The position numbers and the translations under genes were made by a program. From the IMG/VR virus record IMGVR_UViG_3300014166_000003, positions 1-62,340 of that record: a stretch of DNA of 62,340 bases; one strand, 5' to 3'. This document shows, piece by piece, positions 665-61,957 of the stretch. The notes below the pieces were generated by a model, which saw nothing but the letters and a program-made list of their open reading frames with translations, did no database searches and was not told where the DNA came from. Positions within the stretch are counted from its first letter, which is position 1, and each line of letters opens with the position of its first letter. Source of the stretch: a virus. Lineage: Duplodnaviria; Caudoviricetes.

Positions 665-688
665 ACCACGGAAGGTCACACGGATGTG
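665..688 (+). promoter_or_regulatory. Two tandem CsrA/RsmA-type GGA hairpins in the SSB leader
   Basis: ACC-ACGGAA-GGT (665-676) and CAC-ACGGAT-GTG (677-688). Confidence 0.65.
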
Positions 689-746
689 GAAAGCAAATGT
701 TCAATAACAGAAACGTTCAATAAACCAAGGAAAGGTAACAAGGACC

Positions 747-1133
747 ATGCAAATTCAGCTACCCAAGAATCTCGATGAAGTCAAGGCGGGGTTTGATCCG
801 CTGCCAGAAGGTACGTACAAAGTGCGTGCCACGAAAGCGGATCTCAAAACGAGCGCGAAGGGCAATCCCTATCTCGCAATCACCTTCACTGTCATTGAGA
901 ACGACGCTGCGGAGTACAACAACCGCAAGCTCTTTCACAACGTCACGATCACCGACGAAACGATGGGATTCGTGAAGGAAGTGCTCGAAGCTCTCGGTAC
1001 TCCCTGGGACGGCAATTCGTTCGACACCGAAGACGTGATCGGCAACGAAGCACTCGTCTCGGTCAAAGTTCAGGCACGTGCGGACAATCCCGAACAGATG
1101 CAGAACGTGATCAAAAAGTTCGCTCGCGCCTAA
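747..1133 (+). CDS. DUF669-like single-stranded DNA-binding protein
   Basis: FDPLPEGTYKVR...SAKGNPYL.ITFTV...NRKLFHN...N.IKKF pattern; Shine-Dalgarno upstream. Confidence 0.8.
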   Translation: MQIQLPKNLDEVKAGFDPLPEGTYKVRATKADLKTSAKGNPYLAITFTVIENDAAEYNNRKLFHNVTITDETMGFVKEVLEALGTPWDGNSFDTEDVIGNEALVSVKVQARADNPEQMQNVIKKFARA

Positions 1134-1296
1134 CAGGCGGCTGCGTTCTTCCCGAAGTAGGTGCGGCTAGATTGAAACGGCTGGACTGAAAAAGGCGTCA
1201 GGGCCGCGAATAAATGCTGACGAAAATCAACGCGGACCACTTCACGCTAGACGCTATCTCACAAGAGAGTAAATGCACGATGCGTGCGGTGCGAGA

Positions 1297-1376
1297 GAAG
1301 TACGGCTTTCGTCCAACGGTAGGACGCTATCTCATAAGTGCCGAGATGGAAATGGGAGTTCGAATCTCTCAACTTC
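1297..1376 (+). ncRNA. tRNA-like element (degenerate; Met-type CTCATAA loop)
   Basis: D-arm GTCC-AACGGTA-GGAC, T-arm GGGAG-TTCGAAT-CTCTC and CTCATAA loop; anticodon and acceptor stems are non-canonical, with no adjacent CCA. Confidence 0.45.
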
Positions 1377-1416
1377 GTATGCCGCAGTCCACGGATGGAC
1401 ACAAACCGGCAGATGC

Positions 1417-1454
1417 GGGCAGCTTCACACGGATGTAAGAGCTGCCCATTTCTT
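1417..1454 (+). terminator. Terminator-like hairpin with a GGA loop
   Basis: GGGCAGCT...AGCTGCCC followed by ATTTCTT; loop contains AC-ACGGAT-GT. Confidence 0.5.
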
Positions 1455-1495
1455 ACAACACAGAGACAAAACAAACGATTGGAGTCAGGGAAGAC

Positions 1496-1795
1496 ATGTT
1501 CACATTGAAATTAGGTAGTCGGAAATTTCGGCTGGGACGCGGTCCGGTTGCAGCAACACTCAACGATGTGCTCAAGCATCGCATCGCCACAGCGGAAGAG
1601 CGATATGAGCAAGCAGCTCGCGACCGTGAAACCCAGCTCGATCAGGAAATCGAACTGCATGACCGGGCACTGCAGGCTGTCCAGGTCCAGTATGAAGAGA
1701 ACGTCGATGCGGCTTATCAGCGGCATGACGATGACGTCGTTGAACTGTTGGTGAAGCACGTGGACGAAGTGCTTACCGGAAAGGTCGGTAAATAA
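1496..1795 (+). CDS. Hypothetical coiled-coil protein
   Basis: ORF with SD (GGAG/AGGGAA), tightly packed in the operon. Confidence 0.7.
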   Translation: MFTLKLGSRKFRLGRGPVAATLNDVLKHRIATAEERYEQAARDRETQLDQEIELHDRALQAVQVQYEENVDAAYQRHDDDVVELLVKHVDEVLTGKVGK

Positions 1796-1796
1796 C

Positions 1797-2012
1797 GTGG
1801 GACTTCTGACAATACTCGGAATCATCTTTATCGTTCTGAAACTCGTCGGCGTGATCGTGTGGTCCTGGTGGTTGGTCCTGCTGCCGTTCGGCGCAGAGAT
1901 CATCGCCTGGGCGATTGCAGTGATCGTGTGGGCCATCGTCGGTTCCTATGCGCTGCAAGCGGTCAGCAAAGAGATGGCACAGGCAAACAAAAGAAATCCG
2001 TGGGGGCTGTAG
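1797..2012 (+). CDS. Small membrane protein
   Basis: LTILGIIFIVLKLVGVIVWSWWLVLLP, a common phage transmembrane motif. Confidence 0.75.
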   Translation: MGLLTILGIIFIVLKLVGVIVWSWWLVLLPFGAEIIAWAIAVIVWAIVGSYALQAVSKEMAQANKRNPWGL

Positions 2013-2014
2013 CC

Positions 2015-2344
2015 ATGAGCCTGCAATTCGACATTCTGCAAACAGAACAGAAGGAAACGCAGGAGTCAGCAATCGTGCTGACTTACTTCCTTGAAGTGGT
2101 CAACGTCAAACTGAAGGAACGGCATATCACGATTCATCCGGACGAAGCTTCTGCTCTGTATCAACTCCGGAAGCATGGTCGGTTCGGTCAGCGGCCGAAC
2201 GCAGGTGGTGGAGATCGAGAAGAGAAAATCTTCGATGCACTGCAGGGACCGATCGTGGCTGTGCTCGCAAAGATTGCAGCAACGAAGGTTGAGCCGATCA
2301 TCGCCATCGCGTCAGCAATACCCAGCGGCTTGGTGACTCCGTGA
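2015..2344 (+). CDS. Hypothetical protein
   Basis: ATG directly after the upstream stop; overlaps the next start. Confidence 0.6.
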   Translation: MSLQFDILQTEQKETQESAIVLTYFLEVVNVKLKERHITIHPDEASALYQLRKHGRFGQRPNAGGGDREEKIFDALQGPIVAVLAKIAATKVEPIIAIASAIPSGLVTP

Positions 2345-2559
2345 GCGAACGGACGTTTCATGTGACGGTCCAGTACGGAGCTGGACCACACTTCTTTATC
2401 ACAACCACACGCACGGCATTTGACAACGTGCTCAAGGCAAAAGTGCATGCTGAAGGCGAACAAGCCTCTCGAATGCTCGCATGGAAAAAGAACGGCGGGC
2501 GCGGTGCGAAACCGATCACGCGAGTGATGATGGTGCTGCTGGAAAGGGACAGCCGATGA
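2341..2559 (+). CDS. Hypothetical protein
   Basis: GTGA and ATGA coupling on both sides. Confidence 0.6.
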   Translation: MSERTFHVTVQYGAGPHFFITTTRTAFDNVLKAKVHAEGEQASRMLAWKKNGGRGAKPITRVMMVLLERDSR

Positions 2560-2942
2560 CAGTTAAGGCGCGAATAGACAACCTGCTTGCGTGCGTAGGT
2601 CTCATGCGTACTGATATTCATCAGTCGCGTATGCAGGCACGGGCTGAGCATATGGCATTCGAGAACCGTACGGACCGACAACTTGCGGCACAGAGACAAG
2701 AGAAAGCTGTTGAGGAAGCAGGCCGAATTAAGGATGAGATCCTCTCACAGTGGGGAAGCCTGCAGGTTCGTCGGACGCCAATGAAGGGCTACGTCGTCAT
2801 TCAATATCAAGTGGCCGAAGAGCTGATGCTCATGTATCAGGGCAACGATCAGGATCGAATCGTTGTGCTTGCACAGGCTGTGGGCAAGTACATTGAACGC
2901 GAGCTGCGTCGGACTCGGTTCTTCAACGTGGGGTATCGATGA
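2556..2942 (+). CDS. Hypothetical protein
   Basis: ATGA coupling with neighbours. Confidence 0.6.
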   Translation: MTVKARIDNLLACVGLMRTDIHQSRMQARAEHMAFENRTDRQLAAQRQEKAVEEAGRIKDEILSQWGSLQVRRTPMKGYVVIQYQVAEELMLMYQGNDQDRIVVLAQAVGKYIERELRRTRFFNVGYR

Positions 2943-3169
2943 AAGAAGGGTGGAAGCGGCTTCTAGGAGCAAAGAAGCGACACTTCTTCAATATTGACTA
3001 TCACTCACTGTGCAAACGGTGGATGACTTTCAATCATGTCGACAGCGATGACAACAACGATCACAAGGACAATTGCGTCGAATGTACTAGAAGGCTTCTG
3101 ATCTCGATCACGGAGCCGACGCAAAGTATGCAGGGCGAGCAGCGGAGCATTGATCCGCAACGACCTTGA
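2939..3169 (+). CDS. Hypothetical protein (H...C...CxxC, possible Zn binder)
   Basis: ATGA coupling; HFF...SLC...NCVEC. Confidence 0.55.
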   Translation: MKEGWKRLLGAKKRHFFNIDYHSLCKRWMTFNHVDSDDNNDHKDNCVECTRRLLISITEPTQSMQGEQRSIDPQRP

Positions 3170-3322
3170 CCGTTCCGCATGAACGCATGCCACAAAGGTC
3201 ACAGAGACGGGAAAACATTAGTGCGTTCTTCTATCCCGTAAAGAACGGTAACCGGTAACCAGTCCGGTCGTCCTGCTCCAATTTCCCGCACTTTGGCGGA
3301 TTCAAGGAAGAAACACATAGGC

Positions 3323-6046
3323 ATGGATGCCTTACAACTCACATCACAGCTTGCTGCCGGTATTCCTTCCACATATGGCATATCTCTAGCGAGTCGCCTG
3401 CTTCCGAGCAATGGTCCCACCAATGCAAAGATCGCAATAGTGGGCGACTTCCCTTCCCACCAAGACGAAAAGAAACGCGGATCACTCACGAGCTGGGCGG
3501 GCGTCGAGCTGGACAAGATGCTTAAGAATGTCGGCTTATCTCGTGGCGACGTCTACGTGACCGACTACATCAAGGTGCGTCCGCCGAAGAACAACGTGTT
3601 CGCCATGCAGCCTGGGCCATACGATCCAATGTGGCTGAACATGCTGCGGACCGAGCTGGACGCGGTCAAGCCGAACGTCGTTATCGCGCTAGGCTCTGTC
3701 AAACGGAGGAACGTTCCCCTCAACATCCTGTGTGGTCTGAATCCAGACGGTTCGTCGGCTGACGGATCGGGCAAGCTGCCGAACCTGAGCAGCATGAAGT
3801 ATCGCGGCAGCGTGCTGGAATCGACGTTCATACCTGGGCTCAAGGTCATTCCGACGATCCACCCGCAAGCAATCATTTCACAGTGGTCATGGCGGCAGCT
3901 TGTTGTCGCGGATCTTGAAAAAGCGAAAGCTGAAAGCGAGTTTCCGGATATCCGGAAACGGCCGCGAACGTTTCGCATCCGGCCGAAGTTCCGCGAAGTG
4001 ATCGACTACATACACGACATTCTGCGGTCACGTCGAGAGTACTGCGTCGATATTGAGCTGAAGGCACAGCATATCAGTTGCATCGGAATCGCGAAGTCGG
4101 CCGAAGACGCGCTGTGCATTCCATTCATCGAGCACGGTCAGCCGTATTGGAGCACGTTCGAGGAATACGCCATATGGCGTGCACTTGCGCAGCTCTTCGA
4201 AACCGACATTCCGAAGATCTTCCAGAACGGTCTGTTTGATTGCTTCTGGCTGTGGCTGCATGGGATCAGGGTCAACATGAAGAACATTTGGGACACCATG
4301 TTGATGTTCCACTTGTTGTACGCGGAGCTGCCCAAAGGTCTCGATACGCTGTGCTCGCTGTACACCGATCTACCGTATTACAAGGACGACACCAAGGCGC
4401 ACAAGTTCAACGTGCCGGACGAAGTGCTGTGGCGATACAACCTGAAAGACTGCCTGGGCACACACGAATGCAAACAGCATCTTTACGCCGCACTCAAGGG
4501 TTTCTCCGCTCCGAAAGTCTACCTGCAGAGCATCCGCAACTGGAATGTCTTGGGGCTGTACACCGACGTGATTCAACCCTTGATCGGCGAGCTGCTCACG
4601 ACCGAGCTGCGCGGTGTGAAGATCGATATCGCCAAGCGGGAAGAAGCATCGGAAGAGCTAACCGGCAAGATCGCAGCCGCACAAGAGCGGCTGAATGAGA
4701 TCGCAGGACACGCGCTGAACGTGAATTCTCCGCTGCAGCTCAAGGCATTCTTCTTCAAAGAGTGCGGGATCGAAGAGCAGGTGAACCGGAAGACCGGCAA
4801 GGTGTCGACGTCCGAAGAAATCCTGCTCAAGATGACCGACAGACTGAGTGCGGAACAACGCACACGCGAGGAAGCGGCAGCAAAGGCGACGAAGAAACGG
4901 AAGGCACCGAGCAAGCAGGTTGAGAAATGGGCGCGGGAAGAAACGGCACTGCGGGCAATACCCAATGTGTTGGAGATTCGCGGGCATAAGAAGATCAAGA
5001 AAACGTATCTGCAGGCACAGCTCGATCCGGATGAAAGAATCCGAACAAGCTATAACCCTGCAGGCACCGACTTCGGTCGTCTCGCATCGAGCAAAAGCCC
5101 TTTAGGTAGCGGCGGAAACCTGCAGAACATTCCGCCTGGGATTTGCCGTGAGATCTTTGTGGCTGATTCCTGTGAAAGCTTAGAGGGAGCAGCGCATTGC
5201 TATGACGTGCTGCCGACGATTCCGGTACGAGACAAGAAAGATCCGGACAAGATAAAGGAAGTACCGGCGTGGACGATCGATCCGCTGCATCCGCCGGACG
5301 TCTGTGTCAAAGATAGCTGCATGCTGTGGCTCGCGGGTGACTTGTCGCAGGCTGAAGCACGCATCGTTGCCTACATCGCGCCTGAAGCGAACATGATCGC
5401 AGCGTTTGAGAGTGGGCAGGATATCCACATCTACAACGCTTCGCTGCTCTTCGATCTGCCTTATGAATCGATGCATGGTGAGTCACCGGAACGATTCATC
5501 GCAAAGCATCTGGTGCACGCGTGCAATTACAAAGTCGGTAAGGCGCGATTCGCTGACACGGTGAACATCAAAGCGAGTATGCACGGTGTCAACGTGTTCT
5601 TCACACCGGAACGTGCGGGCGAAGTGATGCAGCTTTACTACACGAAGTTCAGTGGCATTCCTGCGTTCCATGTGTTTGTCGAAGAGCAGATCAAAAAGAG
5701 TCACATGCTGTGGAACCTGTTCGGTCGGCCGCACGTGTTCTTCGATCGTGCCGACGATAACGTCTTCCGCACTGGCTATGCCTGCATTCCACAAGGTACG
5801 GTCGCGGACATGGTCAACATCGGCTACGTGCGCGTGGCAAAACGATTCCCTGTGGTCCTGCAAGTGCATGACTCAATCACAATTCAGGTGAAGCCTAGTC
5901 AGGTGGAAGATGGGATGAAGGTCATGACCGACGCATTCAATATTCCGCTGAACGCACACGGCAAAGAATTCTATATCCCGATGGACTTCAAGATCGGTCC
6001 GTCATGGGAGAACGCACGAAAGATCAAACTGCCAAAGGCAGCATAA
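3323..6046 (+). CDS. polA: Family A DNA polymerase with N-terminal uracil-DNA-glycosylase-like domain and 3'-5' exonuclease
   Basis: UDG4-like motifs (IAIVGDFP, KVRPPKN, VVIALG, TIHP); Exo I/II/III (CVDIE, QNGLFD, YNLKD); GRLASS...NLQNIP; motif A DLSQAEAR; motif B RFIAK...NY; motif C LQVHDS. Confidence 0.93.
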   Translation: MDALQLTSQLAAGIPSTYGISLASRLLPSNGPTNAKIAIVGDFPSHQDEKKRGSLTSWAGVELDKMLKNVGLSRGDVYVTDYIKVRPPKNNVFAMQPGPYDPMWLNMLRTELDAVKPNVVIALGSVKRRNVPLNILCGLNPDGSSADGSGKLPNLSSMKYRGSVLESTFIPGLKVIPTIHPQAIISQWSWRQLVVADLEKAKAESEFPDIRKRPRTFRIRPKFREVIDYIHDILRSRREYCVDIELKAQHISCIGIAKSAEDALCIPFIEHGQPYWSTFEEYAIWRALAQLFETDIPKIFQNGLFDCFWLWLHGIRVNMKNIWDTMLMFHLLYAELPKGLDTLCSLYTDLPYYKDDTKAHKFNVPDEVLWRYNLKDCLGTHECKQHLYAALKGFSAPKVYLQSIRNWNVLGLYTDVIQPLIGELLTTELRGVKIDIAKREEASEELTGKIAAAQERLNEIAGHALNVNSPLQLKAFFFKECGIEEQVNRKTGKVSTSEEILLKMTDRLSAEQRTREEAAAKATKKRKAPSKQVEKWAREETALRAIPNVLEIRGHKKIKKTYLQAQLDPDERIRTSYNPAGTDFGRLASSKSPLGSGGNLQNIPPGICREIFVADSCESLEGAAHCYDVLPTIPVRDKKDPDKIKEVPAWTIDPLHPPDVCVKDSCMLWLAGDLSQAEARIVAYIAPEANMIAAFESGQDIHIYNASLLFDLPYESMHGESPERFIAKHLVHACNYKVGKARFADTVNIKASMHGVNVFFTPERAGEVMQLYYTKFSGIPAFHVFVEEQIKKSHMLWNLFGRPHVFFDRADDNVFRTGYACIPQGTVADMVNIGYVRVAKRFPVVLQVHDSITIQVKPSQVEDGMKVMTDAFNIPLNAHGKEFYIPMDFKIGPSWENARKIKLPKAA

Positions 6047-6069
6047 CAAAGGAAGGGCAAAGAAATCTC

Positions 6070-6441
6070 ATGGAAGAGATACAGCAAGAGCAGCAAGCAG
6101 AACCACGCCGAATGAAACTAGCCTACGTCGCTGGAAAGTACCGCAGCAAGACCGAGTACGGTGTGCACGACAACATTCAACGGGCCGAGAAGGTCGCGCT
6201 GAGATATTGGGCCAGGGGGTATGCCGTGATCTGTCCGCACAAGAACACAGCCTATTTCGGTGGCTTTGCCGGTCTGAACGACAGTGTGTGGCTTGATGGA
6301 GATCTGGAAATGGTTCGTCGTTGCGATGTCGTAATCATGATGCCGGATTGGGAAGACAGCGTCGGCGCGTGCACTGAACTGGCTGTGGCGAAGGCGTACG
6401 GCAAAGAGATCATCTACGATGACTCAGATCTCTATTGGTAG
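6070..6441 (+). CDS. DUF4406/DUF1937-like (nucleoside 2-deoxyribosyltransferase-fold) protein
   Basis: AYVAGKY...ICPH...DLEMVRRCDVVIMMPDWEDSVGACTE. Confidence 0.75.
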   Translation: MEEIQQEQQAEPRRMKLAYVAGKYRSKTEYGVHDNIQRAEKVALRYWARGYAVICPHKNTAYFGGFAGLNDSVWLDGDLEMVRRCDVVIMMPDWEDSVGACTELAVAKAYGKEIIYDDSDLYW

Positions 6442-6530
6442 ACAGTCGGCGAACGAAAGCGGAATCGATAATCTGCCGGACAGGGAAGTCTAAGCAGACA
6501 TAACTTAAACGAAGGAACATCAAGGACGAA

Positions 6531-7886
6531 ATGAGAGAACGATCACTCGGTAACGACAAAACGTGGCTTCAAGGATATATGGAGTACACCAAAGAATACG
6601 AATCCCCAATGCTCTATCACCAATGGGTTGGCTTAATCACGATGGCTGCATCGTTGCGCAACCGAGTCTATTTGACTCGTGGTGCTGCAATCCATCCGAA
6701 CCTGTACGTGGTGCTCGTCGCGGGCACGGCTACCGTACGCAAGAGTACGGCAATCAAACAGGGCACAGACCTGAGCAAACAAGTACCGGCAGTCAGACAC
6801 TATCGTGGCACGATAACCGGACCGTCACTGATTCAGAGCATGCGGTCAGACGTGCCCACAAGCAGCGACAAGCGAGTAGCGAAGAAACCTGCGCAGGAAG
6901 GAACAACGATCAACCTGAACAGCGTGGCAGGCAAAAGAGAAGACAGCCTGTTTCTCGTGAACGATGAGATGTCGACGTTCATGAACGAAGCAACGCGAGA
7001 CAGCTTGGAAAGCAATTTGACGCAGCTATGGACCTGCCAACCTGATTGGGAGTACAAGACAAAGACTCGTGGCAGCGCGTTCCTTGAGAACACATGTCTG
7101 AACATGCTGCTGGGTACGAATCCCCGCTGGCTGTCGAAATCGATTGGCGAAGATTCGTTCGATGGCGGCTTTGCCGGTCGCGTGATCTGGCTGTTTCAGA
7201 GTGAGCCCAGGCAGCGGAATGGCTGGATCAAACATGGTCCAGAGCGCAAAGATCTGGAAGCACGTCTTGTCGAAGATCTCGTGCACATGTCCGAGCACAT
7301 TGCGGGCGAAATGGGCATCGAGGATTCGATCCGCGAAGAATTCAAGCTGTGGGACGAAACACGATCGAGGGATGTGGCAACGTCCAGGATGGTCGGCTAC
7401 AACGAGCGTAAGCCTGAGACGGCGCTAAAGCTGGCAATCCTGCTGAGCATCAGCGAGAGTGATGAGCGGATCGTGCGCGAGCGTCATGTGCGAGCTGCTT
7501 GGGACATGTTGAAGACGATGGAAGCCTATATGCCGTTTGCATTCCGCTATATCGGAACGGAAGACGCGGCTATCGGCGAAGAGATCTTAAACCTGTTGCA
7601 AGAACATCACGGTGAAATGCTGCAGCGTGATCTGCTCAAGAAAGTGAAGAACAGGCTGCGGAACGGTAAGAAGCAGTTTGAGGCGATACTCGATCTGCTC
7701 GACTTCATCGGCGACGTCTCATACAGCTCAAGCGGCACTGATCCGCATGCAATCATCTGCCTGGGAAAGAAGCAGACAGAGCAAGCCAACCAGACAACGG
7801 ACCTGACGCAAAGCTTGATGTATCGAGCGGGCGCGGCCGGTGTATCGGTCGTCGACGAAAACGACGCTGAGATCATCGGTGATTAA
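6531..7886 (+). CDS. DUF3987-like AAA+ protein (putative replicative helicase/primase-associated)
   Basis: PNLYVVLVAGTATVRKST (Walker A-like), LFLVNDEMS (Walker B-like), GGFAGRVIW, C-terminal wHTH-like region. Confidence 0.7.
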   Translation: MRERSLGNDKTWLQGYMEYTKEYESPMLYHQWVGLITMAASLRNRVYLTRGAAIHPNLYVVLVAGTATVRKSTAIKQGTDLSKQVPAVRHYRGTITGPSLIQSMRSDVPTSSDKRVAKKPAQEGTTINLNSVAGKREDSLFLVNDEMSTFMNEATRDSLESNLTQLWTCQPDWEYKTKTRGSAFLENTCLNMLLGTNPRWLSKSIGEDSFDGGFAGRVIWLFQSEPRQRNGWIKHGPERKDLEARLVEDLVHMSEHIAGEMGIEDSIREEFKLWDETRSRDVATSRMVGYNERKPETALKLAILLSISESDERIVRERHVRAAWDMLKTMEAYMPFAFRYIGTEDAAIGEEILNLLQEHHGEMLQRDLLKKVKNRLRNGKKQFEAILDLLDFIGDVSYSSSGTDPHAIICLGKKQTEQANQTTDLTQSLMYRAGAAGVSVVDENDAEIIGD

Positions 7887-7944
7887 TCGAGCGGCCAGGG
7901 TCTAAGAAAGTAGCCTTGGTTTGCGAACAGCGGGCAGGAACCAC

Positions 7945-8202
7945 ATGCGACATATCTCAAAGTATCAACGTGCTTGTGGTTCCTGCAACGTGCCAGTCCC
8001 CGAACAACCTGCCTCTTCTTCCATCCTTACGAACATACAGGCTCAGTCATGGTGCCCAGGCTGCGGTGCGTCACTCTGTGAAGCGTGCTTCCAGACGAGT
8101 GGACCGATGTGCCGAGACTGCTGGACTGATGGTCAAAGAACCAGAAGAAGATCTCAGGATCTCCAGCGACTTGTTAAACAGTTTTCGGATATTTGCGGAT
8201 AG
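7945..8202 (+). CDS. Cys-rich zinc-finger-like protein
   Basis: Four CxxC pairs; start position uncertain. Confidence 0.45.
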   Translation: MRHISKYQRACGSCNVPVPEQPASSSILTNIQAQSWCPGCGASLCEACFQTSGPMCRDCWTDGQRTRRRSQDLQRLVKQFSDICG

Positions 8203-10622: not shown

Positions 10623-10625
10623 CCG

Positions 10626-16474: not shown

Positions 16475-16510
16475 ACTGTCTACTTAGACAGGCATCCTGC
16501 CGGGGAATCC

Positions 16511-20612: not shown

Positions 20613-20661
20613 GTAAGAACCTTCCTTGGTCTATAAGATCGAACGTGTTGAGTAATGCAGG

Positions 20662-30068: not shown

Positions 30069-31028
30069 TTACGCGACCGCTCCGGAGAAGAAGTAGCCGA
30101 GATCGGTTCCGATGACTTTGTTGTCCCAAGCCATCTGACCTTCGATCCGGTCTGCTCTCTTGAGATCCATGCGGAAGCGGCTGAGACCAACCTGCTCGCC
30201 CATGACTTCGTTGACGCCAGTCCACTGGAAGATGTATCCAGCAGAGGGAGCCAGAAGACCGGGAGACGGGTTGCTGTAGCAGAGCAGTGCATGCTTGCCG
30301 TAGGCGAACGAGAATGCATCGGTCGCGCCTTCGTTTGCCGTGTTCTTGATCGCTCGTGCAACCAGGATGCGGTCCACTTCGAACATCTGCGCGAGCATTT
30401 CGACCGTGACAGTCTGCGAAGACGTGTACTTGATGCGGTCGACAATGTCAGGATGGTTACGCAGTTTGCGGAACACCTGATAGCCGATCACGAGAGTGTT
30501 CGGCATGAGACCGGTCACGCTCAGGATTGCTTCTTTACCGTTCTCGATATCTTCGATCGGATCGCTCCCCGCGGAGTCCGACCACACGGTGAAGTCCGAT
30601 CCGCCCGTTTTGTCCGTTCCCCAAACACTTGTGGTGAAGTATTCGGTAACAAACTGCAGCTCTCGCCGCATGAGCAAACGCTGCGTGACGAACTTGGTCG
30701 CATCCTGATCCAGGTTCAGCGGGCTGTCCGCGTTCTTGCGCGTCTGATCGCCGATGTCCTTGTGAAACGCATACACGTCGCACGAGTAGGACGAGGTCGA
30801 AAGCCCATAACCGCTGCCTTCGGACTCCGTTGCATCAGCTCGACGCTGCGCTTCATCCTTGAACCAATCGCCTTTGGCGTAGGTGAAATATTTATCGGTC
30901 TGCTTGGAGACCGGAATCGTGGGAAACACCTGACCGGCGATATAGTTCTTGTCGGCGTTCATATAGCCGATAGAGATATTGGTCAGGATACTGTCAATGT
31001 GAACGTCTTGCTGTGCCGGTTTAGGCAT
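30069..31028 (-). CDS. Major capsid protein
   Basis: VHID..LTNISIGY.N...IA..VFP.IPV.KQ..KY; WSD...SDPI.DI; PSAGY.F.W. Confidence 0.92.
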   Translation of the reverse strand: MPKPAQQDVHIDSILTNISIGYMNADKNYIAGQVFPTIPVSKQTDKYFTYAKGDWFKDEAQRRADATESEGSGYGLSTSSYSCDVYAFHKDIGDQTRKNADSPLNLDQDATKFVTQRLLMRRELQFVTEYFTTSVWGTDKTGGSDFTVWSDSAGSDPIEDIENGKEAILSVTGLMPNTLVIGYQVFRKLRNHPDIVDRIKYTSSQTVTVEMLAQMFEVDRILVARAIKNTANEGATDAFSFAYGKHALLCYSNPSPGLLAPSAGYIFQWTGVNEVMGEQVGLSRFRMDLKRADRIEGQMAWDNKVIGTDLGYFFSGAVA

Positions 31029-37121: not shown

Positions 37122-37284
37122 CGTGTCTCCGGTCACTCCTACTTCATTCGACCGATAGGCACGTTATCTATTTGACGTCAATAGCACATTAGTGGCAGGC
37201 ATCGTGGCATTCAAAGTGTAAGAGTCAATGCCCCCGGTGTATTTCGCATCGGCACAAGACACAGCACAAACGAGGAAACCAAGG

Positions 37285-39627
37285 ATGGAAGTTATCAAGC
37301 GAGATGGACGCAGGGAAGCGTTCGACGAGAAGAAAGTTCAGCGGGCAATCACGAGAGCACTGCTGAGCATAGGTCACGACGATTCAGCAGCCTGGGCGGT
37401 AAAAATCACCGCCTGGGCTCTTGACGTGATCGGTCAGTACCGATCAATTCAGGTGGAAGAGATTCAGGACATAGTGCAAGAGATTCTGCAGGAGAACATT
37501 AATGCGGAGACCGCACTCGCATACGTCAACTACCGCTTTCGACACCAAGCACTGCGCAATGCATCCGGTGAGCTAGACAAGCCAGATGACGTCCGCACCG
37601 TCAAGAATGCACAGCGGTACTTTCCGACCGAGATTCAAAAGCTGCAGTTTTACGACAAGTACAGCCGGTACGATCGTTCGAAGGGACGTCGCGAGACATG
37701 GCCTGAGACAGTCAGACGCGTATTCCACTTTCTGCAAGAAAACGTCGGAAGTTCCGGAACTTCCGGAAGTCTGTCGAACGGTGAGTGGGAAGAGCTGCGT
37801 GATGCTGTGCTCAAGCTGGACGTCATGCCGTCCATGCGCCTGCTGCAGATGGCTGGACCGGCACTCGAAGCACACGGGCACGTCGGCGCGTACAACTGCG
37901 CGTATCTCCCGATTGACTCGCTGACGTCGTTCGTTGAGCTGCTCTTCATCCTGATGCAGGGTACAGGTGTCGGCTACAGCGTGGAGTGGCAGAACGTCGC
38001 GAAGCTGCCCACGGTTCAGTATCAGCACCCGGAAGATATCGATTACCTGACGGAACACACCATCGAAGACTCGACCGAAGGATGGTGCAACGCGCTGCGC
38101 CTGGGAATCGAAACATGGTTCCAGGGACACGCTATCATTTTCGACTATTCGAAGATCCGCCCACAGGGAGCAGCACTTAACACGAAAGGCGGTCGAGCCA
38201 GCGGACCGCGACCACTGCAAGATCTGCTGACATTTGTGCGTGACACCATCGCAGACGCACAGGGACGTCGGCTGACACCGCTCGAATGTCACGAGATCGC
38301 ATGCTACTGCGGATACATCGTCCAGGTTGGTGGTGTCCGACGCTCCGCACTCATTTGCCTGTTCGACGATTGGGATTTGTCCATTGCTGGCTGTAAGCAG
38401 GGTGAGTTCTGGCTTGCAAAGCCGTGGCTCGCAATGGCGAACAACAGCGCAGTGTATGAAGGTCGGCCGACCGTTGCGAACTTCCTGCACCGCTGGGCGA
38501 ACCTGATCGACGGACAAACAGGTGAGCCTGGGATATTCAACCGTGAACAGGTGTGGACGTCGCTCGAAGCAAGATCGCATAAGCGCGTGACGCTCGACGA
38601 GTCTACTGGATGGGCGATTGCATTCGGCACGAATCCATGTGGAGAAATCATTCTGCGTCCACGGCAATTCTGCAATCTGACGATTGCTGTCGCTCGACCG
38701 GCCGACACGATCTTCGATCTCAAACGCAAGATCCGACTCGCGACTATCCTGGGCACGGTGCAGAGCACGCTGACCGATTTCGGTTATCTGGACACGCTCA
38801 ACCAAGATTGGAAAAAGAATTGTGAAGAAGAAAGATTGCTGGGCGTAGACATAACGGGAATCCAGGACAATCCCGTGCTGCGCTATCGATCATCTGCGCT
38901 CTGCTTTCCACCACAGGACGACGTACGTCAGGTTCCGCTGAATCAAATGTACCGTCGTGATGCACTCAGCATGCTGCGCGATTACGCAGTCAGCATGAAT
39001 CAGGTGTACGCAAAGCTGTTTGGCATTCCGGAATCCGCGTCCGTCACATGCGTAAAACCGTCCGGCAATTCCTCGCAACTGCTCGATACGTCCAGTGGAC
39101 TGCATCCACGTTTCGCGCCTTATTATATTCGTCGGTTCCGCATCGGCGCGTACACACCGATCGCAGCACTTCTGCGTGAGAGTGGCATTCCGTTTCAGCC
39201 GGAAGTCGGACAGACCTTGGAGAACGCAACCGTGCTCGTATTCGAGTTTCCCGTTGCTTCACCGAAGGACGCACTTACGCGCAGAGACATGCATGCCCAG
39301 GCGCAGCTTGAGAACTGGCTCGACCTAAAGCTGTATTACACCGAGCACAATCCGAGCACAACGGTCGTCGTAGACGACGATGAATGGATTGAAACAGCCG
39401 CATGGGTACATCGCGAGTGGCAGCACATCGGCGGGCTCACGTTCTTTCCGAAGGACGGCAATGTTTATCAGCTCGCACCGTATGAGGAAATCTCGAAAGA
39501 GCGATACGAAGAGCTGTCGAAGAACTTTCCGACTGTCGATTATTCGAAGCTCGTTCGGTACGAACACCAGGACGAGACGACAAGCGGTAGGGAATTCAAC
39601 TGCACATCGGGAGCGTGCGAGCTGTGA
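37285..39627 (+). CDS. nrdJ: Class II (B12-dependent) ribonucleotide reductase with N-terminal ATP-cone
   Basis: VIKRDGRRE.FD ATP-cone; YNCAY, GGVRRSA, GTNPCGEI, FCNL, TCVKPSG, C-terminal CTSGAC. Confidence 0.92.
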   Translation: MEVIKRDGRREAFDEKKVQRAITRALLSIGHDDSAAWAVKITAWALDVIGQYRSIQVEEIQDIVQEILQENINAETALAYVNYRFRHQALRNASGELDKPDDVRTVKNAQRYFPTEIQKLQFYDKYSRYDRSKGRRETWPETVRRVFHFLQENVGSSGTSGSLSNGEWEELRDAVLKLDVMPSMRLLQMAGPALEAHGHVGAYNCAYLPIDSLTSFVELLFILMQGTGVGYSVEWQNVAKLPTVQYQHPEDIDYLTEHTIEDSTEGWCNALRLGIETWFQGHAIIFDYSKIRPQGAALNTKGGRASGPRPLQDLLTFVRDTIADAQGRRLTPLECHEIACYCGYIVQVGGVRRSALICLFDDWDLSIAGCKQGEFWLAKPWLAMANNSAVYEGRPTVANFLHRWANLIDGQTGEPGIFNREQVWTSLEARSHKRVTLDESTGWAIAFGTNPCGEIILRPRQFCNLTIAVARPADTIFDLKRKIRLATILGTVQSTLTDFGYLDTLNQDWKKNCEEERLLGVDITGIQDNPVLRYRSSALCFPPQDDVRQVPLNQMYRRDALSMLRDYAVSMNQVYAKLFGIPESASVTCVKPSGNSSQLLDTSSGLHPRFAPYYIRRFRIGAYTPIAALLRESGIPFQPEVGQTLENATVLVFEFPVASPKDALTRRDMHAQAQLENWLDLKLYYTEHNPSTTVVVDDDEWIETAAWVHREWQHIGGLTFFPKDGNVYQLAPYEEISKERYEELSKNFPTVDYSKLVRYEHQDETTSGREFNCTSGACEL

Positions 39628-40926: not shown

Positions 40927-41319
40927 ATGACGGTAATGAGCCAAGGACGGCAAACAGCACGGGAAAAGTTCAATCTGCAAGAGTACCAAAAATGGACAAA
41001 GACGACCGAGAACGGCCGCGTCGCGTCGTGGGATTGGGAGCGGCAGCTCGCGTATTTCGGTCTCGGTATCGCGGGCGAATCGGGCGAAGTCGCTGAAAAG
41101 ATCAAGAAATTGTTCAGAGATTGCGAAGATCCGGACGGCAGCTTGGATAGCGGCTACCGCGAGATCATTGGCAAAGAGCTGGGCGACGTGCTTTGGTACG
41201 TGACTCGCATCGCATCCGTTGTGGGGCTCGACCTTCAAGATCTGTTCGAAGCGAACGTTTCGAAGATCGAAGATCGCAAAGCCCGTGGCACCATCGAGGG
41301 GAACGGAGACCATCGGTAA
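40927..41319 (+). CDS. MazG-like nucleotide pyrophosphohydrolase
   Basis: LGIAGESGEVAEKIKK...KELGDVLWY...N..K...R..RG.I.G.GD.R. Confidence 0.9.
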   Translation: MTVMSQGRQTAREKFNLQEYQKWTKTTENGRVASWDWERQLAYFGLGIAGESGEVAEKIKKLFRDCEDPDGSLDSGYREIIGKELGDVLWYVTRIASVVGLDLQDLFEANVSKIEDRKARGTIEGNGDHR

Positions 41320-52370: not shown

Positions 52371-52426
52371 CAGCCGACAGCGAACAGCAAACAGCAAACA
52401 ACGAAACATCGGGAGATCACAGAACT

Positions 52427-59422: not shown

Positions 59423-59686
59423 CGCACGCCATATTACTAGGACAGTGTGTCCTGATTTTTCGATTTGGCCGAGAATGCCGGAATAGGAATTAAAAAGGAT
59501 CGGTGCGTCTCCCGATGGCGGATTGTCGCGTTAGCGAATCCGTTTGATGCACCTTGAAGCAGGCACGTTGATACGAGCATGGACGCTGCCGGACTGAAAA
59601 GTTTGGCAGCAAAAGTGTAAGAGTCAATGTGCCTGCATTTGTTTTTGGGGACTTGTGCGGAGCACAACACACGGGAGATTGCCAAG

Positions 59687-60097
59687 ATGGCACGAAGAAA
59701 ACAGAAAGATAGGACCTATTTCCGCATACGTACGTTCCTCAATGCGGACCGCGCAATGCCGGGGATCTTACTCGCCAAAGTTACGCAGACCGAATACATA
59801 TCAGACCACGAAGGGCCGAGCTGCTTCACCGATACGGACATGACGATCGGCGATTGCGGTCGACAGATCAGCCTGGGCTTTGATGTTGACACCGAGCAGG
59901 AATATCGACGGGCGGTGCAGAAAATCAATCGGCTGGCGAAAGCGGTCGAAGGTATGCGCCAAGCACTCTTTGATGCGCACGAGCGCGTTCTCGAACTCAG
60001 AAAAGAGCAGAAGATCCGGCAGAAGAAACAGCAGAAAAGGAAGAAACAGGAAAAAAGGGAGAAAGAAGATCAGCCACGTCCGGAGAGCGGAGAATGA
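59687..60097 (+). CDS. Hypothetical protein with basic C-terminal tail
   Basis: GGGAG SD; I.DC.R.I.L.F motif. Confidence 0.65.
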   Translation: MARRKQKDRTYFRIRTFLNADRAMPGILLAKVTQTEYISDHEGPSCFTDTDMTIGDCGRQISLGFDVDTEQEYRRAVQKINRLAKAVEGMRQALFDAHERVLELRKEQKIRQKKQQKRKKQEKREKEDQPRPESGE

Positions 60098-60642
60098 GCC
60101 TTGTTGTGGTCACAAAGAGTGGTGCAGTCTGCAAAGGTTTCATGCGCCTGCCTGCAGACGATGGTCTCTACGAAGAGGGATTTTCGAACATCCAATCACG
60201 GGATCATTTTCTTGCTCGCGGCAAGAACACGATCAGAACACGAGAGAAGGTCGAAAAGCTGATCTATTTGCAAACCTACCACGCCGATCATCACGCGTAC
60301 CTGTTCGCAGGCAAAGATGCGAAGACGCTGCTGCACGTGCATTACAACGAGGGATGGATCATCGATGTGGTGAAGATCGGCAATGCGGATATCGTGCGTG
60401 AACGATTTGATCGGACGCAGGACTACAAAAAGCAGGATGACGTGTTTCGGGCAATGGTCTGGAAAGCGATGTTTCTCGCGAACATGGAACATGACGGGTG
60501 GTCGTTTCTGCAGCCTGCTCGCTTGCTAAGGGACGTCGTGCGGAATGGTGAGGCGCTGTGGCATTCAACATTCGTCAGCGTGGCTGCAGCGGAGCGCGAG
60601 AGTGATGCGGAGTCGGCCGAAAGTTTGGAACCCAACCTGTAA
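60094..60642 (+). CDS. Hypothetical protein
   Basis: ATGA coupling. Confidence 0.6.
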   Translation: MSLVVVTKSGAVCKGFMRLPADDGLYEEGFSNIQSRDHFLARGKNTIRTREKVEKLIYLQTYHADHHAYLFAGKDAKTLLHVHYNEGWIIDVVKIGNADIVRERFDRTQDYKKQDDVFRAMVWKAMFLANMEHDGWSFLQPARLLRDVVRNGEALWHSTFVSVAAAERESDAESAESLEPNL

Positions 60643-60731
60643 TACTCAAGCATGCCTGGGCGATTCGCCCAACAAACATCACACAGAAGAAAGACGTCGG
60701 CCATGACGGTCGATCAAAGGATTTCAAAGGA

Positions 60732-61127
60732 ATGAAGACGCCAAGAGTGTCGATACAAAAGCAACCGCTGATCGAAAAGCTGCCCAAGTGGGCACAGGAT
60801 CACATCCAGCAATTGACGAACGCAGTCGACTCGCTGAATGGCTACTTGCAGCAGGTGAGCACATACAAAGTGAACGGTCTGCCTGGGATCAAGTTCCACC
60901 TGGAACACGATGGACCCTGGTATACGGTGCCTTCAAATTGTATATGCATCTTTCTACCGAACGGAACACAAGTGCAGTTGAGAATCGATCATGACGTTGT
61001 CAACGGGCACCACATCTACGTGATGGCAGATCGTGGCGTGAGGGTGCAGGGCAGCTCGCATAACACGCTCGCGCTGATTCCAGAAGAGGGACCAATGAGC
61101 CGCGCACGAGTGGAGGAACAGTCGTGA
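60732..61127 (+). CDS. Hypothetical protein
   Basis: KLPKWAQ..I..L motif. Confidence 0.6.
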   Translation: MKTPRVSIQKQPLIEKLPKWAQDHIQQLTNAVDSLNGYLQQVSTYKVNGLPGIKFHLEHDGPWYTVPSNCICIFLPNGTQVQLRIDHDVVNGHHIYVMADRGVRVQGSSHNTLALIPEEGPMSRARVEEQS

Positions 61128-61360
61128 AAGATTTCATCTTGTTCTTCCTCGTGCAGGCGGTCAGCTACAGCATTCTGACTGTCAACTTTCGCGCTGTTGC
61201 TGCCGGTCATTTATCCGTGACACTCGTCACCGATGCACTAAATGCAACGCTCAGCTTTTTCGTGATAAGGCGCATCGCAAAGAGCGACGACTCTATCGTC
61301 GGCTGGCTAGGTTATTTGTTCGGTTCATTGGTCGGCACGACCATCGGGATGCTCGTATGA
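61124..61360 (+). CDS. Small multi-TM membrane protein
   Basis: Three hydrophobic segments; Y..G...GT..G. Confidence 0.65.
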   Translation: MKDFILFFLVQAVSYSILTVNFRAVAAGHLSVTLVTDALNATLSFFVIRRIAKSDDSIVGWLGYLFGSLVGTTIGMLV

Positions 61361-61926
61361 GCAGCGAACAACGAAAAACGCTCGTCGTGAATCTTTATGG
61401 CGGACCTGGAACAGGCAAGTCAACCACGGCAGCAGGTGCGTTCAGTCTGCTCAAGCGGCAAGGTGTGTCGGTCGAGCTGGTAACGGAATATGCAAAGGAT
61501 CTCGTTTGGGAAGGCTCGTTAGAGCTGCTTAATTCGAACCAGATTCATGTCTTCGCTGAACAGCATCGGCGCATGGTCCGGCTGCAGGGCAAGGTCGATG
61601 TGATCATCACGGACAGTCCGCTACTGCTGACACTCTTCTACGGCCGCACGAATGTGTCGGAATTGTTCAAGCAAGTTGTCGAGCAGGAAAATGATCGGTT
61701 CTGGAATCGAGATATCTTCCTTCGAAGGCGCAAACCATATCAGCAAGCAGGGCGCACACAGACCGAAGACGAAGCACGCTTGATTGACGACTGGCTATAT
61801 CAAATGCTGATTCGACGTGGACCGTACTACACATTTGATGCTGACGATGACGCAGCACAGTGTGTTGCAAAGGTCGTGAACCTCTGTCTCTCGCTACCGA
61901 TAGAACAGCAACAAATAACCGGCTGA
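61357..61926 (+). CDS. P-loop NTPase/kinase (AAA_28, NadR-like)
   Basis: VNLYGGPGTGKST, ELVTEYAKDLVWE, IITDSPLLL, GR.Q...EA. Confidence 0.85.
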   Translation: MSSEQRKTLVVNLYGGPGTGKSTTAAGAFSLLKRQGVSVELVTEYAKDLVWEGSLELLNSNQIHVFAEQHRRMVRLQGKVDVIITDSPLLLTLFYGRTNVSELFKQVVEQENDRFWNRDIFLRRRKPYQQAGRTQTEDEARLIDDWLYQMLIRRGPYYTFDADDDAAQCVAKVVNLCLSLPIEQQQITG

Positions 61927-61957
61927 GCCGGTACACAACAATCCAAGGAAGGAACAT

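What the first reader, a model, noticed from the sequence alone, without database searches (positions are those of the whole stretch)
665..61953. CsrA/RsmA-type GGA hairpins on the ribosome-binding sites of the replication module: a candidate host-Csr-gated phage replication regulon
Seen in the sequence: short stems closed by C-G around an ANGGAN loop occur at or just upstream of translation starts. SSB leader: ACC-ACGGAA-GGT 665-676 and CAC-ACGGAT-GTG 677-688. Leader of ORF 1496: GTCC-ACGGAT-GGAC 1387-1400, AC-ACGGAT-GT 1427-1436 and GTC-AGGGAA-GAC 1484-1495, the last abutting the ATG. DNA polymerase: TTC-AAGGAA-GAA 3301-3312 and AGGC-ATGGAT-GCCT 3319-3332, with the start codon in the loop. 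DUF3987-like gene: GAC-AGGGAA-GTC 6479-6490 and TC-AAGGAC-GA 6520-6529. RNR: CC-AAGGAT-GG 37279-37288 on the ATG and ACGC-AGGGAA-GCGT 37308-37321. Helicase: TCC-AAGGAA-GGA 61942-61953. Further sites: 59576-59587, tail chaperone RBS (minus strand, 20619-20630) and tail tip leader (minus strand, GGC-AGGAT-GCC 16491-16501). The stems differ in sequence but keep their pairing. Established: CsrA/RsmA/RsmE dimers bind pairs of such loops and block the SD. Inference: most of these genes carry paired sites, so phage DNA synthesis may be translationally gated by the host Csr/Rsm state, or the transcripts may titrate CsrA. No csrA ORF is recognisable in this window.
Basis: partly seen in the sequence, partly recalled or inferred. 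Interest (0 to 1): 0.85.

Follow-up and report, generated by a model that had tools for sequence, protein, structure and literature searches.

The report
CsrA-type hairpins on phage replication genes
An uncultured soil phage places small RNA hairpins, shaped like the best known docking site of the bacterial translation regulator CsrA, on the start sites of about ten genes, most of them for DNA replication and nucleotide supply; this suggests that making these proteins is gated by such a regulator, though the host is unknown and binding is untested.

Summary
All 15 listed sites exist as written. The 8-mer CANGGANG is not over-represented (25 and 11 on the two strands; shuffles 20.2 and 14.8). 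But on the sense strand 19 of 24 copies extend to a stem of 2 bp or more and 14 of 24 to 3 bp or more (1.5 expected, p about 1e-11). On the antisense strand the figures are 1 and 0 of 12.

Among 1019 classes of closing pair by loop, C-ANGGAN-G is the only outlier (Bonferroni 4e-8). Loops of 5 or 7 nt, or a change at any fixed loop base, fall to the base rate. About 120 other viral loci sit on the null.

Sixteen of the 24 sites lie within -115 to +30 of gene starts, and all 16 are stemmed. The one close relative shows the same start-site bias, with three compensatory pair changes.

The shape equals the published high-affinity RsmE/CsrA site (PMC4005645). No csrA lies in the 93% of the genome assembled, and the host is unknown.

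Reading: operators for a CsrA-family protein, probability about 0.5. This scan has noted similar hairpin sets in other phages, most of which carry their own csrA.

The parts
665..676 (+). Hairpin ACC-ACGGAA-GGT in the SSB (DUF669) leader, GGA at -77 of ATG 747
677..688 (+). Hairpin CAC-ACGGAT-GTG in the SSB leader, GGA at -65
724..736 (+). Heptaloop variant ACC-AAGGAAA-GGT over the SSB Shine-Dalgarno. Its class is not enriched, so membership is uncertain
1387..1400 (+). Hairpin GTCC-ACGGAT-GGAC in the non-coding stretch before ORF 1496, GGA at -103. Kept in the relative as GCCC-ACGGAC-GGGC (one compensatory pair)
1427..1436 (+). Hairpin AC-ACGGAT-GT (2 bp), GGA at -65 of ORF 1496. AC-AGGGAG-GT in the relative
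1484..1495 (+). Hairpin GTC-AGGGAA-GAC abutting ATG 1496 (SD in the loop)
3301..3312 (+). Hairpin TTC-AAGGAA-GAA, GGA at -17 of the UDG-PolA ATG 3323. AC-AAGGAA-GT in the relative (compensatory U-A to A-U)
3319..3332 (+). Hairpin AGGC-ATGGAT-GCCT with the polymerase start codon in the loop. CGC-ATGGAT-GCG in the relative (compensatory G-C to C-G)
6065..6080 (+). Hairpin ATCTC-ATGGAA-GAGAT with the start codon (6070) of the DUF4406 / nucleoside 2-deoxyribosyltransferase-like gene in the loop.
6479..6490 (+). Hairpin GAC-AGGGAA-GTC, GGA at -47 of the primase (DUF3987) ATG 6531
6520..6529 (+). Hairpin TC-AAGGAC-GA (2 bp) on the primase SD, GGA at -7
20619..20630 (-). Hairpin ACC-AAGGAA-GGT on the SD of gene 20244-20612 (position of a tail chaperone), GGA at -13. 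CC-AAGGAA-GG in the relative
37279..37288 (+). Hairpin CC-AAGGAT-GG (2 bp) overlapping the RNR start codon 37285
37308..37321 (+). Hairpin ACGC-AGGGAA-GCGT at +29 inside the RNR ATP-cone coding region. Its loop uses AGG, the rarest Arg codon (4.8%)
40940..40951 (+). Hairpin GCC-AAGGAC-GGC at +18 of the MazG gene start (ATG 40927).
59576..59587 (+). Hairpin AGC-ATGGAC-GCT, 106 nt upstream of ATG 59687 and upstream of a promoter-like motif. Role doubtful, and one or two such sites are expected by chance
60723..60736 (+). Hairpin TTCA-AAGGAA-TGAA (closed by A-U) overlapping the ATG 60732 of a DUF7239 gene
61942..61953 (+). Hairpin TCC-AAGGAA-GGA on the SD of the PIF1/Dda-like helicase gene, GGA at -11
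30852..30863 (-). Hairpin TTC-AAGGAT-GAA 170 nt inside gene 30069-31028. May be a chance member
16491..16501 (-). GGC-AGGAT-GCC (5-nt loop) before the large tail gene. This loop class is at chance and the site is not kept in the relative

Best explanation
About 17-19 short RNA hairpins form one family of protein-binding operators. Each has a 2-5 bp stem closed by C-G and a hexaloop A-N-G-G-A-N. They lie in the 5' leaders and over the Shine-Dalgarno or start codon of about ten genes:
- SSB
- ORF 1496
- UDG-PolA
- the DUF4406 gene
- primase
- RNR
- MazG
- the DUF7239 gene
- Dda-like helicase
- one tail gene

The shape is that of the high-affinity site of CsrA/RsmA/RsmE.

Inferred mechanism: a dimer of a CsrA-family protein bridges two sites 10-63 nt apart, one of them on the SD or AUG. 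This shuts out the 30S subunit, so translation of the replication and nucleotide module follows the level of free CsrA. The protein would come from the host, or from the unassembled ~7% of the phage genome.

Shown: the motif family, its strand and start-site specificity, its pairing into doublets, and its partial conservation in one relative.
Inferred: the binder, the sign of the effect, and the physiological signal.
For: 1. Specificity. On the sense strand 14 of 24 CANGGANG extend to at least 3 bp and 19 of 24 to at least 2 bp. On the antisense strand the figures are 0 and 1 of 12. C-ANGGAN-G is the single outlier among 1019 classes (p 4e-11; the next best is 0.0017).
2. Every departure from the CsrA-type shape falls to the base rate of 0.069: loops of 5 or 7 nt, a non-A at loop position 1 or 5, GAG or AGG in place of GGA. 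Other closing pairs extend in 1 of 16 (A-T), 0 of 23 (G-C) and 0 of 14 (T-A).
3. Calibration. In other viral DNA, 9 of 158 and 46 of 796 sites reach 3 bp. Genomes G002-G004 are at the null.
4. Place. 16 of 24 sites lie in -115..+30 windows that cover 17.4% of the genome. All 16 have at least 2 bp and 13 have at least 3 bp. Of 8 internal sites, 3 and 1 do (Fisher 0.0023). There are 7 pairs 10-63 nt apart against 0.48 at random.
5. The loop GGA is sometimes the SD, sometimes the G of AUG plus the next codon, and sometimes 65-103 nt upstream or +29 in the coding region. The constant feature is the loop-on-stem shape, not a ribosome signal.
6. Most hairpins are thermodynamically marginal. Isolated dG runs from +2.2 to -4.4 kcal/mol, and 10 of 18 have pair probability of about 0.2 or less in context. 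This fits an induced, protein-stabilised site better than a self-standing block (inference).
7. Replication in the relative G001 (polymerase 70% identical, intergenic DNA not alignable). Nine of 10 start-site copies have at least 2 bp (p 3.9e-5) against 3 of 16 internal. Three pairs changed on both sides.
8. [quoted passage not shown] Dimer bridging of sites 10-63 nt apart (PMC4066749, passages).
Against: - No CsrA (PF02599) is found in six frames of the window or of four related records.
- The host is unknown, so the presence of a CsrA is untested.
- Plain A(N)GGA counts per leader are not enriched: 7 of 75 genes pass simplified published criteria against 5.4 (sd 2.3) for shuffled leaders.
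- In G001 the genome-wide count of stems of at least 3 bp is at chance (3 of 23, p 0.17), and ANGGAN ranks 41 of the loop classes there.
- With two sequences, covariation has no statistical power (114 and 256 of 500 shuffles reach it).
- Several sites (665, 677, 1387, 59576) lie far from any start. 30852 is internal.
- My three literature searches turned up no precedent for CsrA control of phage replication genes.
- No Rfam Csr/Rsm family matches.
Confidence: 0.5

Rival explanations
1. The hairpins are operators for a different RNA-binding protein, phage-encoded and of unknown family. This would be analogous to T4 RegA, gp43 or gp32 translational repression of early and replication genes. The likeness to the CsrA site would then be convergent.
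For: - The regulon is a phage-specific set of replication genes, as for T4 RegA (recalled knowledge; the T4 review PMC3014915 was seen only in a search listing).
- Most phage ORFs have no known family.
- No csrA is in the window.
Against: - No RegA, RegB or cold-shock domain is in the window (the RegA and RegB controls did not ring, so those two blanks are weak).
- No RNA-binding Pfam or PHROG family appeared among the roughly 60 ORFs scanned.
- W and G001 keep the sites but share only replication and structural genes. A phage binder would therefore have to be one of those genes, or lie in unassembled DNA.
- The match to the CsrA consensus holds in every tested feature.
Confidence: 0.2
2. The hairpins act in cis only. 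They are small structures that tune ribosome access (showing or hiding the SD or AUG) or mRNA stability, with no dedicated binding protein.
For: - They sit at start sites.
- Five are predicted to form with probability at least 0.7: 6065, 37308, 6479, 1427, and partly 60723.
Against: - A cis-only role does not explain why loop position 1 must be A, positions 3-5 must be GGA, the loop must be exactly 6 nt and the closing pair must be C-G.
- It does not explain why the GGA can be SD, start codon or neither.
- Most stems are too weak to matter on their own.
Confidence: 0.2
3. The transcripts act as a sponge that titrates host CsrA, rather than (or as well as) being regulated by it.
For: About 19 hairpin sites lie on abundant replication-gene transcripts. 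Three are in a roughly 360-nt non-coding stretch (1134-1495) and two in the 230-nt SSB leader.
Against: - No Rfam CsrB/RsmX/Y/Z-type match.
- By my own count read from the sequence printed, the non-coding stretch holds about 10 GGA in 361 nt. I estimate this as near what its composition gives.
- Sites are spread over many mRNAs, not packed into one RNA.
Confidence: 0.07
4. Chance, or a by-product of AAGGA-type Shine-Dalgarno sequences.
For: - The 8-mer itself and plain A(N)GGA counts are at chance.
- The motif was chosen after looking at the sequence.
Against: - Bonferroni-corrected p of 4e-8 in a scan that did not presuppose the motif.
- The antisense control, and about 950 control sites in other viral DNA, sit at the null.
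- The start-site bias recurs in G001.
Confidence: 0.03

Closest known systems
CsrA/RsmA/RsmE translational operators (E. coli glgC, cstA, pgaA; Pseudomonas hcnA; high-affinity consensus of Duss et al. 2014, PMC4005645)
   Same: - Hexaloop A-N-G-G-A-N directly on a short stem closed by C-G.
- One site over the SD or start codon and a second site 10-63 nt away.
- Stems of 2-5 bp that are weak on their own.
   Different: - The targets are phage DNA-replication and nucleotide-metabolism genes, not cellular carbon, motility or secondary-metabolism genes.
- No CsrA gene is in the assembled phage DNA, and the host is unknown.
- Binding is untested.
- The published linear-motif criteria (at least 3 A(N)GGA sites) are not enriched here.
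Hairpin regulons in phages that carry their own csrA
   Same: - ANGGAN-loop hairpins over ribosome sites of a dozen or more genes in uncultured phages, several of them from soil.
- The same closest known structure.
   Different: - Those notes place the hairpins mainly on late or virion genes and report a phage csrA or a CsrA-like gene.
- Here the set is the replication module and no csrA is found in 93% of the genome.
T4-type translational repression of replication genes (RegA; autogenous control by gp43 and gp32). Recalled knowledge; the review PMC3014915 was seen only in a search listing
   Same: A phage-wide set of early and replication genes controlled at the translation initiation region. 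The polymerase start region holds a hairpin.
   Different: - T4 operators are AU-rich or gene-specific, not GGA hexaloops.
- The repressors are phage proteins. No homologue of these was found here (weak blanks).
Csr/Rsm sponge RNAs (CsrB, RsmX/Y/Z)
   Same: Repeated GGA-loop hairpins on RNA.
   Different: - No Rfam match.
- Sites are scattered over mRNA leaders, not packed in one small RNA.

Membership tests
CsrA/RsmA/RsmE binding sites | GGA presented in a hexaloop A-N-G-G-A-N placed directly on a stem | tested here: met
   14 of 24 sense CANGGANG have at least 3 bp and 19 of 24 have at least 2 bp. Loops of 5 or 7 nt and altered loop bases are at the 0.069 base rate. Consensus from PMC4005645.
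CsrA/RsmA/RsmE binding sites | C-G pair closing the loop | tested here: met
   14 of the 15 sense hairpins with at least 3 bp are closed by C-G. A-T, G-C and T-A closed ANGGAN extend in 1 of 16, 0 of 23 and 0 of 14.
CsrA/RsmA/RsmE binding sites | A site overlapping the Shine-Dalgarno sequence or start codon of the regulated gene | tested here: met
   GGA lies between -17 and +2 of the start for ORF 1496, PolA (two sites), DUF4406, primase, RNR, helicase and the tail gene. MazG has one at +18 and the DUF7239 gene one on the ATG.
CsrA/RsmA/RsmE binding sites | Two or more sites per leader, 10-63 nt apart, for bridging by one dimer | tested here: met
   7 pairs at 10-63 nt against 0.48 at random (maximum 5 in 5000 trials). 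Distance rule from PMC4066749.
CsrA/RsmA/RsmE binding sites | At least three A(N)GGA sites and at least two pairs per leader (CSRA_TARGET-type criteria) | tested here: inconclusive
   7 of 75 genes pass my simplified version against 5.4 (sd 2.3) for shuffled leaders. SSB, primase and RNR pass; PolA does not.
CsrA/RsmA/RsmE binding sites | A CsrA-family protein present in the same cell | not testable with these tools
   Phage: no PF02599 match in the window or in four related records, but about 7% of the genome is unassembled. Host: not identified.
CsrA/RsmA/RsmE binding sites | Binding by CsrA, and translational repression that depends on the GGA | not testable with these tools
   Needs EMSA or ITC, toeprinting and reporter fusions.
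Csr/Rsm sponge sRNA (CsrB, RsmX/Y/Z) | One small non-coding RNA densely packed with GGA hairpins, matching a curated family | tested here: not met
   Rfam at gathering threshold over the whole window, and at E up to 5 over 400-3400: no Csr/Rsm family.
T4 RegA/RegB-type phage post-transcriptional control | A phage gene of family PF01818 (RegA) or PF10715 (RegB) | tested here: inconclusive
   No match in six frames, but the control genomes hold neither family, so the blank is weak. Loop position 6 is never G among the 19 stemmed sites, so none of them reads GGAG. That RegB cuts at GGAG is recalled.

The most novel reading that the evidence does not exclude
A phage with no csrA of its own has wired its whole DNA-replication and nucleotide-supply module to the host's Csr/Rsm system, through high-affinity CsrA hairpins on each start site. 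The decision to replicate then reads the host's physiological state. Its nearest relative carries an integrase and an ECF-type sigma factor, so in that lineage the decision may be between lysogeny and growth. The accumulating leaders may in turn drain free CsrA.
Probability: 0.3. Interest if true: 0.8.

Novelty: new variant of a known kind. Interest (0 to 1): 0.66.

Why it matters
CsrA/Rsm proteins are known as global regulators of bacterial metabolism, motility and virulence. If a phage places textbook CsrA docking hairpins on its polymerase, primase, SSB, helicase, RNR and MazG start sites, phage DNA synthesis would be coupled to a host post-transcriptional signal. Three full-text searches found no description of such a link. 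The nearest was an indirect effect of csrA overexpression on prophage release in Salmonella (PMC12371270, passages read).

The case is directly testable with about 40-nt RNAs and any purified CsrA/RsmE. The conditional test used here asks whether CANGGANG extends into a stem, on the sense strand, at start sites. It is a simple screen, well calibrated on about 950 control sites, and could be run over all phage genomes.

Tried and rejected
- **More relatives for covariation.** The polymerase protein search found one protein at 70% identity (the G001 record), one at 45% (P0003) and the rest at 34% or less. Scans of IMG/VR with polymerase, primase and SSB alignments and with a DNA pattern of the polymerase start region gave only G001 as close kin. 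The metagenome scan gave one locus at 26% identity.
- **Host.**
  - tblastn of the polymerase against cultured phages gave at most 28.5% identity, with mixed hosts.
  - The RNR's best cellular matches are 43-44%, in two MAGs that hold no phage-like polymerase.
  - One of those MAGs (G006, unpublished) has a CsrA.
  - A search of 167 genomes of that MAG's phylum with the tail-tube protein found nothing.
  - The Atlas look-up of the PEP-CTERM protein gave only phylum-level leads: Pseudomonadota, Cyanobacteriota, Verrucomicrobiota.
- **Phage-encoded CsrA-like protein.**
  - A regex for the G-x-x-AP signature found nothing CsrA-like.
  - ORF 50724-50945 (73 aa) looked faintly CsrA-like by eye. It has no PDB, Pfam, homologue or Atlas support, so I rejected it.
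  - ORF 1496-1795, whose leader holds three sites, is predicted mostly helical by eye and has no family.
- **Linear A(N)GGA target criteria:** not enriched.
- **Population variation.** Contigs of three soil-metagenome runs are nearly identical to 400-8200, with one difference at 2872, so they say nothing about constraint on the stems. No RNA holder was listed.
- **L040.** The polymerase-type pattern upstream of an RNR homologue turned out to start a different small gene, and it has no stems.
- **Supplements.** Supplementary tables of PMC4066749 (predicted targets) were not seen. They do not bear on the counts here.

Full report
**What the window is.** The window is a whole IMG/VR virus record of 62,340 bp. 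It is classed as linear, and CheckV estimates it 93% complete.
- Genes run on + from 1 to about 8.2 kb and from about 37.2 kb to the end, and on - in between.
  - DUF669/SSB at 747-1133.
  - UDG-fused family A polymerase at 3323-6046.
  - a DUF4406 / nucleoside 2-deoxyribosyltransferase-like gene at 6070-6441.
  - DUF3987 primase at 6531-7886.
  - class II RNR at 37285-39627.
  - the N-terminus of a PIF1/Dda-like helicase at 61958-62338.
- MazG lies at 40927-41319.
- Near-identical DNA occurs in contigs of soil-metagenome runs from three studies.

**The observation.** All 15 sites are in the sequence as written.
- Counting every hexaloop ANGGAN flanked by at least 3 Watson-Crick pairs gives 14 on the + strand and 3 on the - strand. 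In 300 dinucleotide-preserving shuffles (in 2-kb blocks) the means were 4.06 (sd 2.1) and 3.09, and none of the 300 reached 14.
- On the sense strand, 15 of 278 ANGGAN have such a stem against 4.6 expected. This ranks first of 256 loop classes.

**Where the signal lies.** The 8-mer CANGGANG itself is not enriched: 25 on + and 11 on -, against shuffle means of 20.2 (sd 4.5) and 14.8 (sd 3.8). C...G is also no commoner than other flanks. The signal is in what surrounds the 8-mer.
- Of 24 copies on the sense strand, 19 have at least one more pair and 14 at least two more. About 6 and 1.5 are expected (binomial p 4e-8 and 1.5e-11).
- Of 12 copies on the antisense strand, 1 and 0 do.
- Fourteen of the 15 sense hairpins are closed by C-G.
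- A scan of all 1019 combinations of closing pair and loop pattern on the sense strand finds C-ANGGAN-G as the only outlier: 14 of 24, p 4.2e-11, Bonferroni 4.3e-8. The next class has p 0.0017.
- Every departure from the shape falls to the base rate of 0.069: loops of 5 or 7 nt, a non-A at loop position 1, a non-A at position 5, GAG or AGG instead of GGA.

**Calibration on other DNA.**
- Three whole, distantly related phage genomes are at the null.
- Twenty loci of distant relatives give 40 of 158 sites with at least 2 bp and 9 of 158 with at least 3 bp.
- Ninety-seven unrelated viral loci give 178 and 46 of 796.

**Where the sites lie.**
- Sixteen of the 24 sense copies have their GGA between -115 and +30 of a gene start. 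Such windows cover 17.4% of the genome. All 16 have at least 2 bp and 13 have at least 3 bp.
- Of the 8 internal copies, 3 and 1 do (Fisher p 0.0023).
- Seven pairs of sites lie 10-63 nt apart, against 0.48 for random placement (maximum 5 in 5000 trials).
- The genes concerned are SSB, ORF 1496, PolA, the DUF4406 gene, primase, RNR, MazG, helicase and one tail gene. A DUF7239 gene has a hairpin closed by A-U.
- The loop GGA plays different parts:
  - the SD (ORF 1496, primase, helicase, tail gene, PolA -17);
  - the G of the AUG plus the next codon (PolA, DUF4406);
  - the bases just before the AUG (RNR);
  - positions 65-103 nt upstream (SSB, ORF 1496);
  - +18 and +29 in coding sequence (MazG, RNR).
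- The RNR +29 hairpin lies in the conserved ATP-cone and uses AGG, the rarest Arg codon in this phage (4.8% of Arg codons in 13 long genes). This is an anecdote, not a test.
- The hairpins are weak on their own. Isolated dG runs from +2.2 to -4.4 kcal/mol. In a +/-40-nt context only five have pair probabilities of about 0.6 or more, and ten have about 0.2 or less.

**The relative.** Only one close relative could be found, G001 (IMG/VR, 41,986 bp). Its polymerase is 70% identical, and it shares the replication and tail modules. Its intergenic DNA does not align with the window by blastn.
- Genome-wide it shows no excess of stems of at least 3 bp: 3 of 23 on its + strand. ANGGAN ranks 41st there.
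- When its sites are sorted by place, 9 of 10 start-site copies have at least 2 bp (p 3.9e-5) against 3 of 16 internal copies (Fisher 0.0008).
- Site by site:
  - both polymerase hairpins are kept at the same distances (AC-AAGGAA-GT and CGC-ATGGAT-GCG);
  - the first two hairpins before the ORF that follows SSB are kept (GCCC-ACGGAC-GGGC and AC-AGGGAG-GT);
  - the DUF4406 homologue has a hairpin on its SD instead of its start codon (AGCC-AAGGAG-GGCT);
  - the tail gene keeps CC-AAGGAA-GG;
  - the primase has GG-AAGGAA-CC, closed by G-C;
  - the SSB leader keeps only C-AAGGAT-G.
- Three of 13 pairs differ on both sides and still pair. With two sequences this has no statistical weight, and the shuffle controls say so.

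**What it resembles.**
- Duss et al. 2014 (PMC4005645; passages read) define the high-affinity RsmE/CsrA site as a hexaloop ANGGAX placed directly on a stem. The stem-loops they studied are closed by C-G.
- Kulkarni et al. 2014 (PMC4066749; passages read) summarise that one dimer bridges sites 10-63 nt apart, and that known targets have a site at the SD.
- The phage family meets each of these features.
- It does not stand out by the linear criteria of that paper. Seven of 75 genes pass my simplified version, against 5.4 (sd 2.3) for shuffled leaders.
- No Rfam Csr/Rsm RNA matches.

**Who binds.**
- No CsrA domain is found in six frames of the window, of G001 or of three distant relatives.
- No RegA, RegB or cold-shock domain is found (the first two blanks are weak because the controls did not ring).
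- No RNA-binding family appears among about 60 ORFs scanned.
- A 73-aa ORF that I thought faintly CsrA-like has no support.
- The record is incomplete:
  - Its left end (12-470) is homologous to the C-terminus of an AAA_24 protein of G001, not to the helicase that runs off the right end.
  - In G001 an ECF-type sigma gene sits just upstream of that AAA_24 gene.
  - The window has the promoter-like motif that G001 shares, but no sigma gene.
  - By my estimate from the gene lengths in G001, the gap therefore probably holds 2 kb or more, and could hold a csrA.
- The host could not be identified.
- W and G001 keep the sites while sharing only replication and structural genes. This mildly favours a host factor, or a binder encoded in unassembled DNA.

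**Earlier notes of this scan.** Searches report ANGGAN hairpin sets in several other uncultured phages. Some are soil phages thought to infect planctomycetes. Most of those sets are on late genes, and most of those phages carry their own csrA or a CsrA-like gene. These are unchecked AI notes. They made me look harder for a phage csrA here, without result, and they show that this kind of feature is not unique to this record. What differs here is the target set (the replication and nucleotide module) and the absence of a csrA in the assembled 93%.

**Literature.** Three full-text searches found no description of CsrA-type operators on phage replication genes. The nearest was an indirect effect of csrA overexpression on prophage release in Salmonella (PMC12371270, passages). 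A ΦKZ Grad-seq study mentions RsmA only for host RNAs in the 12 of 13 matching passages that I was shown (PMC8545117). I cannot claim that nothing is in print beyond these searches.

**Verdict.**
The hairpins have the exact shape, placement and pairing of high-affinity CsrA/Rsm operators. The binder, the host and the effect remain untested.
- My probabilities:
  - operators of a CsrA-family protein: about 0.5;
  - operators of another, unknown RNA-binding protein: 0.2;
  - cis-acting structures only: 0.2;
  - mainly a CsrA sponge: 0.07;
  - chance: 0.03.

Noticed in passing
window 52189-52253 (+): Match to the type-P5 twister ribozyme (Rfam RF02684): 52.3 bits against a gathering score of 37.6, E 5e-8, full model length. 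It lies between early genes 50966-52186 and 52310-53251.
   Followed up: no
window 1307-1372 (+): tRNA-like element: Rfam tRNA at 25.8 bits, below the gathering score of 29, and ARAGORN calls none. It sits in the roughly 360-nt non-coding stretch between SSB and ORF 1496, just upstream of hairpin 1387-1400.
   Followed up: partly
window 487-515 and 59603-59626 (+), and a variant near 37195-37227; G001 at 8031, 11418, 13522: Shared promoter-like motif TTGGC-N(8-12)-TGTA-NN-A-N-TCA upstream of hairpin-bearing genes in both phages. The ATGs at 37228 and 59627 lie inside it and are probably not gene starts. In runs X1-X3 a separate contig (7539 nt in X1) matches 479-515 with 3 differences.
   Followed up: partly
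L006 (G001) 9775-10431, 10498-11409, 888-2255: The relative encodes an ECF-type sigma factor (Sigma70_r2 and r4_2), an AAA_24 ATPase and a tyrosine integrase. The window has no sigma or integrase match. Its 12-470 fragment is the AAA_24 C-terminus, so the two ends of the record are different genes and the gap is probably 2 kb or more.
   Followed up: partly
window 50947, 52267, 52408, 53403, 54442, 56310, 56915 (+): Seven early-gene starts share the block (A)ACATCGGGAGA(TCA), 3-9 nt before the ATG. This is a second, different class of translation start site. ATC/GAT can pair around GGGA.
   Followed up: no
window, whole: Canonical SD words are scarce: AGGAG 10 on + and 5 on -, GGAGG 9 and 0, AAGGAG 1. 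Many structural genes start within a few bases of the previous stop (TAA-N-ATG type), which suggests translational coupling.
   Followed up: no
window 40442-40696 (+) and 23474-24169 (+): A small protein with a QSregVF_b domain (E 1e-7). Also a PEP-CTERM-like protein, by the Atlas feature search only, with no NCBIfam hit. Both hint at a Gram-negative host but do not identify it.
   Followed up: partly
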